DNA of 64,000 nt from Escherichia phage inny (MN850601.1), one strand, 5' to 3'; numbered from the stretch's first letter, positions 24,407 to 30,237 are shown. The notes: generated by a model from the sequence alone, not told the origin. Numbers and translations: made by a program.

Positions 24407-24823
24407 ATGCTATTAGACCAATTTACTCTCCTTGATCTAACAACGTATCAGGGTCGTAAAAGAACCTATGTTCAAGATCCTGATTCGCCAATTTCCAATA
24501 TGGGTAATACAGTAGCATACGAAGACTTTACAATAGAGGCTGCAAGTTTGCAACCAATATCAGGTAGAACACTTCAAGCACTGCCAGAAGGATACAGATC
24601 TAAGGCACAATATAGCTTCTGGACAAAAACAGAAATCAGAGGCATCCAGCAAGGATCAGATCAATTATCTGACCAAATACTAATAGATGGACAATGGTTT
24701 TCCATTTATTCTTTGAAAGACTGGACAAGAACATCTTTCTTAATACACACACATTGTGTTGCTATTCTAGATGACCAGAATAACACCTACTCATATTCTG
24801 AGGAGGGTGGTAATTTTGGCTAA
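24407..24823 (+). CDS. hypothetical structural protein (138 aa)
   Basis: ORF track; AAAGGAG SD. Confidence 0.45.
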   Translation: MLLDQFTLLDLTTYQGRKRTYVQDPDSPISNMGNTVAYEDFTIEAASLQPISGRTLQALPEGYRSKAQYSFWTKTEIRGIQQGSDQLSDQILIDGQWFSIYSLKDWTRTSFLIHTHCVAILDDQNNTYSYSEEGGNFG

Positions 24824-25472
24824 TATCTATGAACAAATTGAATTGTATGAAAATACGATATTATTAAATATCGCTAAGTTCTTACAAAGACTAGTGGGGC
24901 TTCCGGTTTATGTTATGGATAAACCATTTGTTAAACCAACAACCCCATATCTGACATTACGTATTGTATCATCTGATGATTCAGGTGGTTGGTCACAAAA
25001 ATATTCTTTTAGTGAAGATGCGTTTTCCTATCTAATGGACAATAAGTATGAAATAGAACTTATGGCTTTTAGAGGAAGACCAATGACACTTTTAAGTTAT
25101 GTTCTTGCGGCACTTCGTGGTGCAGATGAATTAAAATACCAGTATCTTTATTCCAAAGGTATTAGCTTCTTATCTGCAACAAATGTTGCACAGGCTAACA
25201 CTGTTCTGGATGGAGATAAAACTGAACAAAGAGCGAGAATATTTCTTACATTCAATACTACGATGGTTATTGAGGATTTAGTAACTACCGAAATTGAAGC
25301 AATTAATATGAACATTCATTCGTTCAGAGATGATTACGATGATCCTACTCCAATAGATCTTCCTTTGGATAAGATTTACATTGTTGCTCACAGAAGTAAA
25401 ACTTATTACTTTACGACGACTGATGATGGATCATTAATTAAGTATATCCCAACGGATAATTCATTGGAATAA
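24816..25472 (+). CDS. hypothetical structural protein
   Basis: ORF track 24771..25472 trimmed to TTG at 24816 behind AGGAGGG; overlaps previous stop. Confidence 0.4.
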   Translation: MANIYEQIELYENTILLNIAKFLQRLVGLPVYVMDKPFVKPTTPYLTLRIVSSDDSGGWSQKYSFSEDAFSYLMDNKYEIELMAFRGRPMTLLSYVLAALRGADELKYQYLYSKGISFLSATNVAQANTVLDGDKTEQRARIFLTFNTTMVIEDLVTTEIEAINMNIHSFRDDYDDPTPIDLPLDKIYIVAHRSKTYYFTTTDDGSLIKYIPTDNSLE

Positions 25473-25492: not shown

Positions 25493-26899
25493 ATGGCAAC
25501 TTTTCGTGATAAGGTAGTTTCCGTAACCCTTACCTACGGTGCTACTTCAATTAGTGAAACACAGTTTGATATCCCTCTAATTCTTACAGGGCATAACGTT
25601 ACTGGCAATCTTGTAGATTATTTCACTTCTTCAGACGCACTTCTGCAAGCAGGTTTTGGCACTGCCGATCCAGCTTATAAAATGGCAAAACTACTATTTG
25701 ACGGTCTGTTCGCACCAGAACAAGTTATCGTCGGTAAGCGTGATGTTTCTAAAACAACTCTAACTCCAGTAGTTGAAGATAGTGCAACTTACGTTATCAC
25801 TATTAAAGCAAATTCAAAAAGCAAGGACTTCAAGTTTGTTGCCGATGATACTGCAACTGCTCAAGAGATTGTTGTTGGTTTAACAGAAATGATCAACGCA
25901 GACCTAGTGTATAAAGAATTTTTCACTGTGTCAAACGATGGTAGTGTTATCACTGTAACTCCAGTTGCAGGTAAATACGCTACTATGGATAGTTCAGGAT
26001 TCACAACTAAAGTAGAATATGCAAATGATATCTTAGAAGATATTGCTAAAATTGCAGACTATGAAAACAGTTGGTTCTGGTTACTATCTGATTCTCACGC
26101 AGAACAAGATATTATCGATCTAGCAGGTTATGTAGAAGAGCACGATAAAGTGTATTTCTTCTCTACCTCGCAACCAGGTGTTCTAACTAAAGAAGAAGAT
26201 AACATTCTAGAACGCTTAGGTGATATGGGCTACAATAACACTTGTATGGCACTGTGGATGACTAACGCTGATACAGTGTTCCCAGAAGCTGCTGTAGTTG
26301 GTTCTATCTGCTCTGCAACACCAGGTACTACTACCCTGCATGGTAAAACCCTTGTTGGTATCGAGATTGAAAAACTTGGTCAGACAGCAGAAAACTTTAT
26401 CGTTCAACAGAATGGTAATATTTACCGTAAAGAACACGGTGTTCTGTTCTACCGTGATGGCTTCATGGTTAGTGGTTTCTATGTTGACTATGTGGTACAC
26501 GCTCTGTGGTTCAAAGCTCGCGTAGAAGAATCTCTGTTCGCTCTATTCAAGCAGCAATCTATGCTTGGTAGTGGTGTTAGAGCAACTTCTGCTGGTCTTG
26601 CTTTGATTCGTCAGGCTGTTACTGCAAACCCAATCCAAGTAGGTATTAACAATGGTTCTATTGCCAATGAGGTAGTAACTTCAGAGGAAACAGGACTTCT
26701 GGTAAGCCTTAAACCTACTATCTATATCCCATCTCGTGCAGATATGACTGATGCTCAAATCAATGCACGTTTGGTTGATGGTATGGTTATTGAATACGTA
26801 TATGCTGGATTCTTCCACTATGTTAAAGTGCAGGTAAACGTTCTGACGAACCGCACTGCAAATAGCCAGAATTCCAATAGCTCTACTGTATCTTCATAA
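25493..26899 (+). CDS. tail sheath protein (putative)
   Basis: 468 aa; position immediately upstream of tube and tape-measure genes; size typical of contractile sheath proteins. Confidence 0.7.
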   Translation: MATFRDKVVSVTLTYGATSISETQFDIPLILTGHNVTGNLVDYFTSSDALLQAGFGTADPAYKMAKLLFDGLFAPEQVIVGKRDVSKTTLTPVVEDSATYVITIKANSKSKDFKFVADDTATAQEIVVGLTEMINADLVYKEFFTVSNDGSVITVTPVAGKYATMDSSGFTTKVEYANDILEDIAKIADYENSWFWLLSDSHAEQDIIDLAGYVEEHDKVYFFSTSQPGVLTKEEDNILERLGDMGYNNTCMALWMTNADTVFPEAAVVGSICSATPGTTTLHGKTLVGIEIEKLGQTAENFIVQQNGNIYRKEHGVLFYRDGFMVSGFYVDYVVHALWFKARVEESLFALFKQQSMLGSGVRATSAGLALIRQAVTANPIQVGINNGSIANEVVTSEETGLLVSLKPTIYIPSRADMTDAQINARLVDGMVIEYVYAGFFHYVKVQVNVLTNRTANSQNSNSSTVSS

Positions 26900-26957: not shown

Positions 26958-27437
26958 TTGGATAAAATGCTTACTGGCGTAATGGCCTATGATCCTTCTC
27001 AAGTAATCCTGTCTTTGGGTGGTTGGGAACCTTGGGGTTTCGCCGCAGATACCAAAATTGTTATTAACAAAACTAACGATATCATCAACCCATATTCAGG
27101 TACTGATGGTGACGTTTCCTTGGCGCTTAGTCGTAACCGTTTAGGTACGCTAACAATGTCACTGCAACGTACTTCCCCAGCAAACGAAGTTCTTGCTGCT
27201 TATGCACAAACGATGTATTCTACTCGTCAAGTAGCATTTAGCGTATATCTGGAAGACCCTCGCGGATATTATATCAGCACAATTGGTTGGATTCAAAGCC
27301 AACCGGACGATACTATTGGTGAAACTATTCAAGAAAACCAATGGGTAATTGGTCTTAAAGATGCAAGCCTACTTCGTTCTACTGTAGGTGTTGGTGTTAA
27401 CGCACTTAACTCTATTAGTGCTCTAACTATTCAGTAA
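26958..27437 (+). CDS. tail tube protein (putative)
   Basis: 159 aa; TTG start behind AAGGAG; located between sheath and chaperone/tape-measure genes. Confidence 0.6.
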   Translation: MDKMLTGVMAYDPSQVILSLGGWEPWGFAADTKIVINKTNDIINPYSGTDGDVSLALSRNRLGTLTMSLQRTSPANEVLAAYAQTMYSTRQVAFSVYLEDPRGYYISTIGWIQSQPDDTIGETIQENQWVIGLKDASLLRSTVGVGVNALNSISALTIQ

Positions 27438-27440
27438 TAA

Positions 27441-27466
27441 AAAGGGCAGAAATGCCCTTTATTTTT
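27441..27466 (+). terminator. intrinsic terminator (GGGC-AGAAAT-GCCC + T-run)
   Basis: hairpin followed by TTTATTTTT. Confidence 0.6.
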
Positions 27467-27480
27467 AAAGAGAGGAAATA

Positions 27481-27963
27481 ATGGAACAACAAAAAGATAA
27501 TACTATTGCAAAATTTGCTCGTCCAGAAGTAATGGTTGAAATTGATCTGGATGAAGGACGCAGTGTAAAATTTAGAGTTCTCAAGTGGAGTCCAACTAAA
27601 GTTTTTGAAAGGATTCCAGAACTAGGTAGTGTACTGGCTGTTCCTATGACAATGTATAATACTGCTCTTATGTCAGCAGACGAAGATCTAGAAGCTCGTA
27701 TTGCTATGGCGCTGATCCAGTTATTCAGTGGTCTGGAAGAAAAAAACTTAGCCGCATTCTTACGTAAAATTTTAGATGAAGTTTACACAGAAGCAGGACA
27801 CAGTGTTTCCGATAATTTTGATGAATTGTTTTTTGCTCACCCAGAATTAGTTGTTGACTTAGCTGCAAAAGTTCTTGAGGTGAACTATGCCCCTTTTTTC
27901 AAACGAGGTTTCGGAAAACTGTTGACCCAATTTCAAGGAATAGAGACTCTAGCGAAGAGTTAA
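27481..27963 (+). CDS. tail assembly chaperone (putative)
   Basis: 160 aa acidic protein immediately upstream of the tape-measure gene. Confidence 0.5.
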   Translation: MEQQKDNTIAKFARPEVMVEIDLDEGRSVKFRVLKWSPTKVFERIPELGSVLAVPMTMYNTALMSADEDLEARIAMALIQLFSGLEEKNLAAFLRKILDEVYTEAGHSVSDNFDELFFAHPELVVDLAAKVLEVNYAPFFKRGFGKLLTQFQGIETLAKS

Positions 27964-28238
27964 GTCCGGCAATTAAATCAGCAATTGAAATTGCCTCACA
28001 AACCCTTAGCTTGACATGGTATGAAGTAATTCTTTGTAAGGTAATTAAGAATACCTCCGAAACCTTGTCCTCGTTAGATAATTATGGTGTAGATTATCTA
28101 CTTAAAATTTATGAATATTTAACATTTGAAGACTATGTACAAGATCTTCACGTTAAAGATGCGGATATTAAACGTGGTCAACAGAGAACAATAAGAGAAC
28201 TGGATACGGCTATGAAAAAATTAATTCCAGATTCATAA
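27879..28238 (+). CDS. -1 frame extension ORF (candidate frameshift product of the tail assembly chaperone)
   Basis: -1 frame is open from 27879 and overlaps the chaperone 3' end; slippery heptamer T-TTT-TTC at 27894..27900 in the zero-frame phase; ORF track lists 28011..28238. Confidence 0.4.
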   Translation, partial: GELCPFFQTRFRKTVDPISRNRDSSEELSPAIKSAIEIASQTLSLTWYEVILCKVIKNTSETLSSLDNYGVDYLLKIYEYLTFEDYVQDLHVKDADIKRGQQRTIRELDTAMKKLIPDS

Positions 28239-28257
28239 GTAATACGGAGGATTACCC

Positions 28258-30237
28258 TTGTTAGAAATTAACACTTCCAAGATTAAGAATACAGTAACGT
28301 TTACTGTAGATAAAGATAGTTTAAAAAATACTAAAGACGCAATTAAAAACCTTAAAACTTTTACAGAATCTATTGAACCATCTTTAAATATGACTAAAAT
28401 GCGTCGTCAATTTAAAAGTATGGAAGAGTATGCTAAAAGAATAAGGCAGCAAATGTCAGGTCTTGGCGGCGGTAATCCTCCACCAATCCCACCAACCGGA
28501 GGTTCAAGCGGTGGTGGAAAAGGAGGAAGTGGTAGAGGTGGTTCTGGATCTTCTGGAGGACGTAAAACACCAGAGGAAAGAGCCGCAGAAGCCGCCGCTA
28601 AACGTGCAGCACTTGCTAATATGAAGCAAGACGATTTTAGTTTTAAAGCTATGCCTTTTACAAAAGCAGACAGCAGAATTCTAGAAAAATCTAAAAAGAT
28701 TGTAGAAGAAACTGTTGAACTTTATCGTAAAGGTGTAATCACTAGCCAACAAATGAATAATACTTTGGCTAGACAGTTAGAAGAACTACGAAGATCTCAT
28801 AAAGAGAAGAATGCACAACTTCTTGATGAAGAGAGAGCTAGACGTAGAATTGCCCGTCTGCAAGAAGCAGAAGATAAAAGAAGACAGCGTATCCGAGAAA
28901 GAGAAAGAAAGGATTTCGAACGTCAGCAAAGAAGAGAAAAAGAAGCAAGACAACGCGACAGACAACGTAAGCTATCTGGTGTAGGTAATGCTGCTATTGC
29001 TCTTAACCCTGCTATGTTTGGTGCTGCTCTTTTAGGTGCTGGTTTATATCAAGGTATAAGTAAAATTGCCGAAGGTATTACTGCATCGGCAGAGCGTGTT
29101 AATATGGTTAGTAGAGGTGGTCAGAACGTACAGGTAAACCCTAACGCAATCTTAACAATGCGTACTTGGGGTGAAATGAACGGTGTAGACTCTGCTAGTA
29201 TTATTAAAGCTATTGATAACCTTAAAGACGTTCGTGAACGTTTAGGTAACACTGTACTCCACTCTGAATTTGATGAAAAATCAGGTAAATGGAAAGGTGG
29301 AGATAGTGGTATTAATGAAATCATGAACCAATTTGGTTGGACAAAAGAAGATGTTGCTAAATTCCAGAATAGACCTTTAGACTTTGTTCAAGCACTTGTT
29401 AATGAAGGTCAAAAAAGAGGAATGAACTCTGCGCAAATTGGTCGTCTGATGGAAAACCTTGGTGATGACTTAATGCACTACCAACGTATGTTTTTGGACA
29501 ATGGTAAAGAGTTTATGGAAGTCCTGGGAATGTTAAGTAATTCAGGCGCAACTCTTAACGACGAAAACATCCAAGCAGCACAAGATTTTGTTAAATTAAG
29601 AGCAAAAATCGATGCAGCAGGAGAAGGTTTTACCAATAACTTACTTGTAGGGTTTATGGATGGTTTAAAATCTGCACCAGATTTTGCAGAAAATATGAAA
29701 ACTTTCCAAGAAGCTGCTCGTGGTCTTGGTGAAATGTCTGGTAGTATTGTAAGTAGCCTTGCAAAAATTGCGAAATATTTCCTTGATTTTTCAAATAAGG
29801 TTGGGCCAAAAAACAATACTAAAGAAGCTGTAAGAGATTATTATAATGGTACGCAGTATGGGTACGATGCACAGGTTGGTGGTAATCCTTGGGCTTATTG
29901 GCCTATTGGAAGAGATCAACATCTGCCTGAAAATCAACCTTTAGGTAACTTTGATAGTAGTTTCTTAACTAGTGCCTTAAATCCAAGTGCTTCTAGTATT
30001 GGTTACAATAGACCTGATTTAACAGCATCTATGCTAACACCACGCCAAGGTGTTCCAATACCGTTAAGTCTAGAGAATACGGTTGTTATCCCAGACAACG
30101 CATTCCAGATTAATGTTATTCCAGATGGTTATGGTTTTAGTAATTATCTAGATGCGACAATGAATACCAGTTTTAGTAACTTCTCACAAGGTTTAACTCT
30201 TCAGTTAAGCAGTGGACAATCTTCTACTGGTGGTTAA
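28258..30237 (+). CDS. tail tape measure protein
   Basis: 659 aa; Gly/Pro low-complexity tract, Arg/Glu-rich coiled coil, hydrophobic segment; canonical position after chaperone genes. Confidence 0.75.
   Translation: MLEINTSKIKNTVTFTVDKDSLKNTKDAIKNLKTFTESIEPSLNMTKMRRQFKSMEEYAKRIRQQMSGLGGGNPPPIPPTGGSSGGGKGGSGRGGSGSSGGRKTPEERAAEAAAKRAALANMKQDDFSFKAMPFTKADSRILEKSKKIVEETVELYRKGVITSQQMNNTLARQLEELRRSHKEKNAQLLDEERARRRIARLQEAEDKRRQRIRERERKDFERQQRREKEARQRDRQRKLSGVGNAAIALNPAMFGAALLGAGLYQGISKIAEGITASAERVNMVSRGGQNVQVNPNAILTMRTWGEMNGVDSASIIKAIDNLKDVRERLGNTVLHSEFDEKSGKWKGGDSGINEIMNQFGWTKEDVAKFQNRPLDFVQALVNEGQKRGMNSAQIGRLMENLGDDLMHYQRMFLDNGKEFMEVLGMLSNSGATLNDENIQAAQDFVKLRAKIDAAGEGFTNNLLVGFMDGLKSAPDFAENMKTFQEAARGLGEMSGSIVSSLAKIAKYFLDFSNKVGPKNNTKEAVRDYYNGTQYGYDAQVGGNPWAYWPIGRDQHLPENQPLGNFDSSFLTSALNPSASSIGYNRPDLTASMLTPRQGVPIPLSLENTVVIPDNAFQINVIPDGYGFSNYLDATMNTSFSNFSQGLTLQLSSGQSSTGG

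What the first reader, a model, noticed from the sequence alone, without database searches (positions are those of the whole stretch)
27879..28238. Candidate programmed -1 frameshift between the tail assembly chaperone and a downstream ORF
The -1 frame is open from 27879 to 28238 and overlaps the last 85 nt of the chaperone gene. A slippery heptamer T-TTT-TTC lies at 27894..27900 in the correct phase. This mirrors the conserved G/GT-type frameshift found upstream of tape-measure genes in many tailed phages.
Basis: partly seen in the sequence, partly recalled or inferred. Interest (0 to 1): 0.45.

Follow-up and report, generated by a model that had tools for sequence, protein, structure and literature searches.

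The report
Unannotated tail-chaperone −1 frameshift site
This phi92-like E. coli phage almost certainly makes a long and a short form of its tail assembly chaperone by letting a few ribosomes slip back one base at TTTTTTC, a well-known phage device that database records for this phage group have not annotated.

Summary
The window is a Justusliebigvirus (phi92-like) myophage. The gene order is sheath, tube, chaperone (27481-27963, Pfam Phage_TAC_15), a −1-frame ORF open from 27879 to 28238, then tape measure. T_TTT_TTC at 27894-27900 is in phase.

The heptamer alone is weak evidence (about 0.02-0.12 expected by chance in the overlap). Comparison settles it:
- All 61 related loci checked, down to about 27% chaperone identity and including two Felix O1-like phages, keep an in-phase TTTTTTC and a −1 extension of 206-278 nt.
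- Remoter relatives keep the extension but use G_GGA_AAG, A_AAT_TTT or a GTTTTT run.
- The stretch annotated as intergenic (27964-28010) evolves as −1-frame coding sequence.
- The three possible start codons in the −1 ORF have no ribosome-binding site.

The predicted products are a 160-aa chaperone and a 252-aa fusion.

No conserved local downstream hairpin exists. Two candidate stimulators are unproven:
- a strong Shine-Dalgarno-like GAGGTGA 10 nt upstream;
- a 13-bp long-range helix (27903-27915 with 28056-28068).

None of the 19 records inspected in these two subfamilies joins the ORFs. This is a new member of a known kind. No fusion protein has been observed, so translation of the fusion remains inferred.

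The parts
27481..27963 (+). Tail assembly chaperone gene. Its zero-frame product is the short form, 160 aa.
   Evidence: ORF with a strong ribosome-binding site. Matches Pfam PF21822 Phage_TAC_15 at E = 1.6e-22, 80.8 bits against a cut-off of 22, and phrog_3840 'tail assembly chaperone' at 4e-54.
27894..27900 (+). Slippery heptamer T_TTT_TTC, the proposed site of tandem −1 tRNA slippage. An overlapping in-phase C_CCT_TTT lies at 27891-27897.
   Evidence: Phase checked. Invariant and in phase in 16 GenBank relatives and 44 IMG/VR loci and in 2 Felix O1-like phages. The preceding codon is CCT, TGT or AGT and always ends in T.
27900..28238 (+). −1-frame extension (the 'T-like' part): 112 codons from CAA at 27900 to TAA at 28236-28238. 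The fusion is 27481..27900 joined to 27900..28238 and is 252 aa.
   Evidence: Open frame confirmed. Conserved at protein level in all relatives, including the part upstream of the annotated starts. Codon-position differences in 27964-28010 are 386/313/611 for positions 1/2/3, the same pattern as the accepted coding part. Matches phrog_16039 and, from residue 35 of the −1 ORF (10 residues upstream of the TTG at 28011), phrog_10409.
27877..27883 (+). Shine-Dalgarno-like GAGGTGA, 10 nt 5' of the heptamer. Candidate 5' frameshift stimulator of the dnaX type.
   Evidence: Duplex with the 16S 3' end is −11.5 kcal/mol, in the top 0.14% of all 10-mers in the window and stronger than the SD of any neighbouring gene. 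27 of 38 distinct related contexts have −8 kcal/mol or better upstream of the site. The spacing fits the 9-14 nt reported for −1 stimulation (PMC5009743). The signal is confounded by the conserved Glu-Val codons it lies in.
27907..27913 (+). GGTTTCG motif 6 nt 3' of the heptamer. Near-invariant; its role is unresolved.
   Evidence: Invariant in alignment A1 apart from one A in rV5. Absent from L036 and the Felix O1-like loci. Also present in Pseudomonas phages Ab03 and PAK_P4. It encodes Gly-Phe in frame 0 and Arg-Phe-Arg in frame −1, so constraint from coding in both frames may be enough to explain it.
27903..27915 (+). 5' arm of a predicted 13-bp long-range helix. Candidate 3' stimulator, unproven.
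   Evidence: Pairs with 28056-28068 in both the MFE and the centroid structure of 27901-28080. z = −3.14, and 0 of 200 shuffles fold as well. Arm-versus-downstream duplex test gives p = 0.003. No covariation in 10 Stephanstirmvirinae lineages.
28056..28068 (+). 3' arm of the predicted long-range helix. It lies in the Ser-Glu-Thr-Leu codons of the −1 extension.
26958..27437 (+). Tail tube gene (context).
   Evidence: phrog_280 at 1.8e-36 and Pfam KPP10_Orf10. Annotated as tail tube in phage PaulScherrer.
28258..30237 (+). Tape measure gene (context). TTG start with a strong ribosome-binding site.
   Evidence: phrog_16051 'tail length tape measure protein' over its full length. SD duplex −9.5 kcal/mol.

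Best explanation

Proposed mechanism:
- Most ribosomes translate 27481-27963 and release the 160-aa chaperone.
- A minority slip back one nucleotide when CCU-UUU-UUC is in the decoding sites, re-pairing tRNA-Phe/tRNA-Phe on UUU-UUU. They then read CAA at 27900 and continue to 28238.
- This gives a 252-aa fusion: 140 N-terminal chaperone residues, a variable linker and a conserved C-terminal domain of about 75 aa.

By analogy with lambda gpG/gpGT, the shared N-terminal part would coat the tape measure protein and the frameshift-only C-terminal part would recruit tube subunits. The two forms would be made in a fixed ratio set by frameshift efficiency.

What is shown: the anatomy, the phase, the conservation, the coding signature of the −1 frame, and the lack of initiation signals.

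What is inferred: that the shift occurs on the ribosome, its efficiency, the role of the upstream SD-like GAGGTGA and of the long-range helix, and the binding partners of the two products.
For: - Anatomy and phase.
- Chaperone identity and the tube-chaperone-tape measure gene order.
- In-phase TTTTTTC plus a −1 extension of 206-278 nt in the window, 16 GenBank relatives down to 24-29% identity, and 44 IMG/VR loci.
- The same site in Felixounavirus and Kolesnikvirus. Different slippery sites (G_GGA_AAG, A_AAT_TTT) at the equivalent place in Rheinheimera and Vibrio phages, with the −1 extension retained.
- The third base before the Phe-Phe codons is always T although the residue varies (Pro, Cys or Ser), and the first Phe codon is always TTT. 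Elsewhere in this genome 33 of 42 Phe-Phe pairs start with TTC.
- A coding substitution pattern in the −1 frame upstream of any start codon.
- Only three candidate starts (TTG 28011, TTG 28065, ATG 28212), with anti-SD duplexes of −0.3, −1.4 and −3.1 kcal/mol. Neighbouring genes with a recognisable ribosome-binding site have −5.4 to −10.5.
- Starts annotated in relatives are scattered, giving products from about 43 to 122 aa.
- In E. coli, U_UU.C is the second most shift-prone A-site tetramer, and all-pyrimidine heptamers are favoured (PMC4066793).
- The same device has been proposed for related Pakpunavirus and Andersonviridae chaperones (PMC12846349) and annotated in the Felix O1-like phage Moogle (PMC4319497).
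Against: - There is no direct protein evidence for the fusion in this or any close relative.
- No conserved local 3' hairpin or pseudoknot was found (z = −0.32; 0 consensus pairs). Lambda G/GT is also thought not to need one (my recollection, not checked here).
- The SD-like element lies in conserved Glu-Val codons and is weak in some Vequintavirinae.
- The long-range helix has no covariation support.
- Conservation of TTTTTTC is partly explained by the conserved Phe-Phe dipeptide.
- Frameshift efficiency is unknown.
Confidence: 0.88

Rival explanations
1. The downstream ORF is a separate small gene translated from its own start (TTG 28011 or TTG 28065), as GenBank records annotate it. On this view the overlap and the heptamer are incidental.
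For: All 19 inspected records in the two subfamilies annotate a separate 'hypothetical protein'. The ORF listing returns a 75-aa ORF starting at TTG 28011.
Against: - No SD precedes any candidate start (−0.3, −1.4 and −3.1 kcal/mol).
- The start position is not conserved: the aligned codon encodes Phe in L026 and L030, and annotated starts differ between relatives.
- The −1 frame is open and evolves as coding sequence from the heptamer onward, including 27964-28010.
- The family phrog_10409 aligns from 10 residues upstream of the TTG.
- The TTG lies 48 nt beyond the chaperone stop codon, which is too far for termination-reinitiation (inference).
Confidence: 0.05
2. The fusion is made by transcriptional slippage. 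RNA polymerase adds an extra U at the T6 run, and normal translation of the edited mRNA gives the same fusion.
For: A homopolymeric T6 run is present and conserved. Transcriptional slippage is known in bacteria and would give an almost identical protein (PMC5009743).
Against: - The bacterial slippage described there involves runs of 9 A or T (PMC5009743). Here the run is 6.
- Relatives with the same architecture use G_GGA_AAG or A_AAT_TTT, which are not homopolymers but are classical tandem-slippage heptamers.
- The phase of the heptamer is strictly kept.
Confidence: 0.05
3. The frame overlap is non-functional, and the −1 ORF upstream of 28011 is open by chance.
For: A single 37-codon open stretch in an AT-rich genome is not rare. 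I estimate a probability of about 0.1 (inference, not computed).
Against: It is open in every one of 68 loci from several subfamilies and genera, and it shows third-position-biased substitution.
Confidence: 0.01

Closest known systems
Phage lambda G/GT tail assembly chaperone −1 frameshift (Levin et al. 1993; Xu, Hendrix & Duda 2004, 2013, 2014, as summarised in PMC5009743)
   Same: Position between the tail tube (major tail) gene and the tape measure gene. [quoted passage not shown] No conserved local downstream structure. The arrangement is conserved despite sequence divergence.
   Different: The heptamer is T_TTT_TTC rather than G_GGA_AAG. The phage is a myophage with a sheath. The chaperone belongs to a different Pfam family (Phage_TAC_15). 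No detectable sequence similarity to gpG or gpT was tested or found. A strong SD-like element lies 10 nt upstream. Efficiency and the ratio of products are unknown.
Phage P2 E / E+E' frameshift (myophage). Efficiency is 2-3 fold higher than lambda according to PMC5009743. I recall the slippery sequence as T_TTT_TTG; this is my memory and was not verified here.
   Same: Contractile-tailed phage. The frameshift lies between the tube gene and the tape measure gene. The heptamer is T-rich.
   Different: No sequence relationship was shown here. The last base of the heptamer and the chaperone family differ.
TAC-N/TAC-NC −1 frameshift proposed for Pakpunavirus and other Vandenendeviridae and for Andersonviridae (PMC12846349, 2025), and the frameshift annotated in the Felix O1-like phage Moogle (PMC4319497, 2015)
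   Same: The same wider tail-module lineage, with homologous sheath and tube genes. The same position in the chaperone (...N-F/Y-G-x-F-F). A T-run slip site. Felixounavirus Alf5 and Kolesnikvirus Fifi318 have the identical in-phase T_TTT_TTC. The GGTTTCG motif is shared with Pakpunavirus and Nankokuvirus.
   Different: Pakpunavirus and Nankokuvirus carry GTT_TTT(_T), which is not a canonical in-phase heptamer. That paper did not cover Stephanstirmvirinae or Vequintavirinae, and records for those groups still split the ORFs.
E. coli dnaX −1 frameshift (A_AAA_AAG with an SD 10 nt upstream and a 3' stem-loop)
   Same: An SD-like sequence with a 10-nt spacer upstream of the heptamer (spacing rule from PMC5009743).
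   Different: Different heptamer. No local 3' stem-loop. The outcome differs too: here the shift extends the protein, whereas in dnaX it truncates it. The stimulatory role of the SD-like element is untested here.

Membership tests
G/GT-type tail assembly chaperone −1 programmed frameshift of tailed phages | The gene pair lies between the major tail/tube gene and the tape measure gene. | tested here: met
   Tube 26958-27437, chaperone 27481-27963, −1 ORF to 28238, tape measure 28258-30237.
G/GT-type tail assembly chaperone −1 programmed frameshift of tailed phages | The downstream ORF is in the −1 frame, overlaps the 3' end of the chaperone gene, and has no translation start signals of its own. 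| tested here: met
   85-nt overlap. The three candidate starts have no SD.
G/GT-type tail assembly chaperone −1 programmed frameshift of tailed phages | An in-phase slippery heptamer X_XXY_YYZ lies within the overlap. | tested here: met
   T_TTT_TTC at 27894-27900.
G/GT-type tail assembly chaperone −1 programmed frameshift of tailed phages | The arrangement is conserved among divergent relatives. | tested here: met
   All 68 loci checked keep the overlap and a −1 extension of 206-278 nt. 65 of them have an in-phase canonical heptamer.
G/GT-type tail assembly chaperone −1 programmed frameshift of tailed phages | Both the short protein and the fusion protein are produced, in a fixed ratio. | not testable with these tools
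   Needs proteomics of infected cells or a reporter assay.
G/GT-type tail assembly chaperone −1 programmed frameshift of tailed phages | The shared N-terminal part binds the tape measure protein, and the frameshift-only part binds the tube protein. | not testable with these tools
   The AlphaFold model of the fusion is of low confidence in the C-terminal part (pLDDT below 50). Foldseek against the PDB found nothing.
Pfam PF21822 Phage_TAC_15 | Score above the family's gathering threshold. | tested here: met
   80.8 bits against 22; E = 1.6e-22; residues 29-144. All 45 database homologues carry the same domain.
dnaX-type stimulated −1 frameshift | An internal Shine-Dalgarno-like sequence 9-14 nt 5' of the shift site. 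| tested here: met
   GAGGTGA at 27877-27883, 10-nt spacer, −11.5 kcal/mol. Only its presence is shown, not its function.
dnaX-type stimulated −1 frameshift | A stable stem-loop a few nucleotides 3' of the shift site. | tested here: inconclusive
   No local hairpin. A 13-bp long-range helix starts 2-5 nt after the site (z = −3.14) but has no covariation support and only patchy support across lineages.
Transcriptional slippage recoding | A long homopolymeric A or T run (about 9 in the bacterial cases described in PMC5009743). | tested here: not met
   The run is T6. Relatives use non-homopolymeric heptamers.

The most novel reading that the evidence does not exclude
The frameshift may not rely on the heptamer alone. 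It may be tuned by an unusual pair of stimulators.

- The first is a dnaX-like internal Shine-Dalgarno sequence 10 nt upstream.
- The second is a long-range RNA helix whose 5' arm (27903-27915) contains the deeply conserved GGTTTCG motif and begins 2-5 nt after the slip site, closing a domain of about 140 nt onto 28056-28068.

If so, part of the conservation of GGTTTCG across several phage families would reflect a role at the RNA level rather than only coding in two frames.
Probability: 0.15. Interest if true: 0.5.

Novelty: new member of a known kind. Interest (0 to 1): 0.3.

Why it matters
Stephanstirmvirinae (phi92-like and phAPEC8-like) and Vequintavirinae (rV5-like) phages are widely isolated and used in phage-therapy and biocontrol collections. 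The tblastn search found 362 records with this chaperone.

The records I inspected split the chaperone into a 'tail assembly chaperone' or 'hypothetical protein' plus a short orphan ORF with an arbitrary start. Recognising the frameshift has three consequences:
- It corrects the annotation.
- It gives a function to phrog_16039, phrog_10409 and phrog_8811, which are listed as 'unknown function'.
- It extends the G/GT rule to another large group of myophages.

It does not change the understanding of frameshifting itself, unless the candidate stimulators prove to be real.

Tried and rejected
- Local 3' stimulatory structure. Folding 27901-27990 gave z = −0.32. RNAalifold on 14 lineages gave 0 pairs. 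Rejected as a conserved feature.
- Rfam scan of 27400-28400. Nothing reached a gathering score. The hits to SraG, a CRISPR direct repeat and Atu_C9 are sub-threshold chance matches.
- Search of the 5.8-billion-protein set for an annotated or naturally in-frame fusion. All 45 hits are 151-175 aa and cover at most 60% of the fusion.
- PDB sequence search with the fusion. Only chance hits, with E of 0.17 or worse.
- Structure prediction. A model built with N-terminal homologues only reached mean pLDDT 62.6, with the C-terminal part below 50. Foldseek against the PDB gave no hit at E ≤ 0.001, so there is no structural inference.
- Covariation test of the long-range helix. 0 compensatory pairs, and no better than shuffles.
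- An apparent two-pair compensatory change between Seunavirus-like and POP15-like Vequintavirinae 5' and 3' arms. I rejected it because the 3' arms are not at homologous positions, the complements are only 6 nt long, and their duplex scores are no better than shuffles.
- Vladimirov et al. 2022 on T4-like chaperones could not be read; it is not held in the library.

Full report
**What the window is.** The 5-kb stretch around the finding is 98-99% identical to Escherichia phages of the genus Justusliebigvirus (phi92-like, subfamily Stephanstirmvirinae), for example phiWec187, ALITA, PHB05 and PaulScherrer. The local gene order is that of a myophage tail module:
- sheath, 25493-26899 (phrog_205)
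- tube, 26958-27437 (phrog_280, Pfam KPP10_Orf10)
- a 160-aa tail assembly chaperone, 27481-27963 (Pfam PF21822 Phage_TAC_15, E = 1.6e-22; phrog_3840)
- a short ORF in another frame
- tape measure, 28258-30237 (phrog_16051)

**Check of the observation.** All coordinates are correct.
- The −1 frame has TGA at 27876-27878 and is open from 27879 to TAA at 28236-28238.
- It overlaps the last 85 nt of the chaperone gene.
- TTTTTTC at 27894-27900 reads as T_TTT_TTC with respect to the chaperone frame (…GCC CCT TTT TTC AAA…, that is A-P-F-F-K).
- An overlapping in-phase C_CCT_TTT at 27891 would give the same product.
- A −1 shift yields a 252-aa protein: residues 1-140 of the chaperone followed by 112 residues (QTRFRKTVDPISRNRDSSEELSPAIKSAIEIASQTLSLTWYEV…IPDS).

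**How much the single-genome evidence is worth.** Taken alone, the heptamer is only moderately unlikely.
- In-phase XXXYYYZ motifs occur at 0.0046 per codon in the window's ORFs, which predicts about 0.12 in the overlap. Homopolymeric ones occur at about 0.0007 per codon.
- In-phase T_TTT_TTC occurs twice in 18,234 codons.
- TTTTTTC occurs three times on the + strand of 64 kb and is under-represented overall, 18 observed against 28 expected.
- The phage generally avoids this codon pair. 33 of 42 Phe-Phe dipeptides begin with TTC, although TTT is the commoner Phe codon, 488 to 288.

**Comparative evidence.**
- I examined 16 GenBank relatives chosen across the range of chaperone identity (100% down to 24%) and 44 IMG/VR loci.
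- Every T_TTT_TTC-type locus has a −1 ORF that overlaps the chaperone's 3' end by 85-181 nt. The ORF extends 206-278 nt beyond the chaperone stop and ends just before the tape measure gene. In-phase TTTTTTC sits at the same place in the protein motif …(E/Q)(V/I)NYGxFF.
- The codon before the Phe-Phe pair encodes Pro, Cys or Ser in different lineages, but it always ends in T. The first Phe codon is always TTT. That is conservation at the nucleotide level, not the protein level.
- Through the tube protein I reached more distant tail modules.
  - Felixounavirus Alf5 and Kolesnikvirus Fifi318 have the identical in-phase T_TTT_TTC.
  - Rheinheimera Barbavirus has G_GGA_AAG, the lambda heptamer.
  - Vibrio phages S4-7 and qdvp001 have A_AAT_TTT.
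  - Nankokuvirus, Pakpunavirus and Acinetobacter phage P577 have a GTTTTT(T)C run out of canonical phase.
  - All of them keep a −1 extension of 209-260 nt.
- The slip site changes between lineages while the architecture stays the same. That is what a programmed frameshift predicts.

**The −1 frame is translated from the shift site, not from an internal start.**
- Only three start codons exist in the −1 ORF: TTG 28011, TTG 28065 and ATG 28212. Their best anti-Shine-Dalgarno duplexes are −0.3, −1.4 and −3.1 kcal/mol. Neighbouring genes with a recognisable ribosome-binding site have −5.4 to −10.5.
- Starts annotated in relatives are scattered, giving products of about 43-122 aa. The codon aligned with TTG 28011 encodes Phe in some lineages.
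- Across 11 Stephanstirmvirinae-type lineages, the stretch that records call intergenic (27964-28010) shows differences at −1-frame codon positions 1/2/3 of 386/313/611. The accepted coding part shows the same pattern, 1603/1143/2437.
- In the true overlap the pattern follows the zero frame. This fits a constrained chaperone C-terminus lying over a loosely constrained linker.
- phrog_10409 aligns from 10 residues upstream of the TTG.

**Stimulatory signals.**
- There is no stable or conserved local structure 3' of the site. Folding gave z = −0.32. RNAalifold found 0 pairs over 14 lineages. Rfam had nothing above threshold.
- Upstream, GAGGTGA (27877-27883) pairs with the 16S 3' end at −11.5 kcal/mol. 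That is in the top 0.14% of 10-mers in the window and stronger than any neighbouring ribosome-binding site. It lies 10 nt before the heptamer.
  - The Atkins et al. review gives 9-14 nt as the stimulatory spacing for −1 shifts, and 10 nt for dnaX (PMC5009743).
  - 27 of 38 distinct related contexts have −8 kcal/mol or better in the same zone.
  - Glu is encoded by GAG at this position, although GAA is four times commoner in the structural genes.
  - The element lies in conserved Glu-Val codons and is weak in some Vequintavirinae. I therefore treat it as a candidate only.
- Downstream, 27903-27915 pairs with 28056-28068 (13 bp, 10 of them perfect Watson-Crick). The helix appears in the MFE and centroid structures of every range folded. 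z = −3.14, and 0 of 200 shuffles fold as well.
  - There is no covariation: 73% of cells are paired, there are 0 compensatory pairs, and the result is no better than shuffles.
  - In a duplex-versus-shuffle test, only 3 of 26 lineages (the window, L035 and A73) reach p = 0.003. Most give p above 0.1.
  - The helix may be lineage-specific or fortuitous.
- The near-invariant GGTTTCG motif (27907-27913) forms part of the 5' arm of that helix. It is shared even with Pseudomonas phages. It encodes Gly-Phe in frame 0 and a near-invariant Arg-Phe-Arg in frame −1. Constraint from coding in both frames can account for it.

**Mechanism proposed.** Tandem −1 slippage of two tRNA-Phe on U_UUU_UUC. In E. 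coli, U_UU.C is the second most shift-prone A-site tetramer after A_AA.G. [quoted passage not shown] By analogy with lambda, the short and long forms would be made in a set ratio. The shared N-terminal part would bind the tape measure protein, and the frameshift-only part would recruit tube subunits. Neither form would be present in virions (PMC5009743). These functional statements are inferences from the analogy, not results obtained here.

**Rival explanations.**
- Independent initiation, as annotated in GenBank, is contradicted by the absence of initiation signals and by the coding signature upstream of the starts.
- Transcriptional slippage would need a longer homopolymer. The bacterial cases described involve runs of about 9 (PMC5009743). 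It also cannot explain relatives that use G_GGA_AAG or A_AAT_TTT. A minor contribution at the T6 run is not excluded.

**Novelty.**
- The G/GT frameshift is textbook knowledge.
- It was annotated in the Felix O1-like phage Moogle in 2015 (PMC4319497).
- It was argued for Pakpunavirus and Andersonviridae in 2025 on the basis of a conserved GTTTTT motif (PMC12846349).
- For Stephanstirmvirinae and Vequintavirinae I found no paper describing it.
- None of the 19 inspected records in these two subfamilies joins the ORFs. That includes RefSeq entries and records curated by the Center for Phage Technology.
- No fused protein exists among the homologues in a set of 5.8 billion proteins.
- The finding is therefore real, well supported and useful for annotation, but it is a new member of a known kind.

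Noticed in passing
window 27441-27460: A terminator-like hairpin (AAAGGGCAGAAATGCCCTTT followed by a T-run) lies between the tube gene and the chaperone gene. It would lower transcription of the chaperone and tape measure genes relative to sheath and tube. phAPEC8, rV5-like Murica and PAK_P4 have a terminator annotated at the same place.
   Followed up: partly
window 27741-27747: A second in-phase heptamer, A_AAA_AAC, lies inside the chaperone gene. A −1 shift there would stop after 6 codons at TAA 27765-27767 and give a truncated chaperone. It is probably incidental.
   Followed up: partly
window, all ORFs of at least 100 aa: Phe-Phe dipeptides are encoded TTC-first in 33 of 42 cases, although TTT is the commoner Phe codon (488 to 288). 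TTTTTTC is also under-represented, 18 observed against 28 expected. This looks like genome-wide avoidance of slippery T-runs.
   Followed up: partly
window 27907-27913; L063 and L064 (Pseudomonas phages Ab03 and PAK_P4): The motif GGTTTCG lies 6-9 nt after the slip site. It is near-invariant across Stephanstirmvirinae and Vequintavirinae and is also present in Nankokuvirus and Pakpunavirus. It encodes Gly-Phe in frame 0 and Arg-Phe-Arg in frame −1. Whether the constraint acts on the RNA or on the proteins is unresolved.
   Followed up: partly
L065, L016, L067, L063, L064, L068: The slip site differs between homologous tail modules: G_GGA_AAG in Rheinheimera Barbavirus, A_AAT_TTT in Vibrio phages S4-7 and qdvp001, and a non-canonical GTT_TTT(_T) in Nankokuvirus, Pakpunavirus and Acinetobacter phage P577. 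All keep the −1 extension.
   Followed up: partly
GenBank MG0656xx records (for example MG065656 'Campylobacter phage C3', MG065645 'A145'): About 23 records named as Campylobacter jejuni phages encode chaperone and tube proteins 99-100% identical to phi92-like, phAPEC8-like or rV5-like coliphages. The host labels look wrong, or the records may be contaminants.
   Followed up: no
L015 2246-3346 (phiTE) and L065 3731-4408 (Barbavirus): In phiTE, two extra ORFs lie between the −1 extension and the tape measure gene. In the Rheinheimera phage, a reverse-strand 'DNA binding protein' gene lies there. These are insertions into an otherwise fixed gene order.
   Followed up: no
window 24771-25472 and 24407-24823: The 233-aa ORF listed from ATG 24771 overlaps the preceding 138-aa ORF by 53 nt and has no SD-like sequence (−1.7 kcal/mol). 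Its true start is probably further downstream.
   Followed up: no
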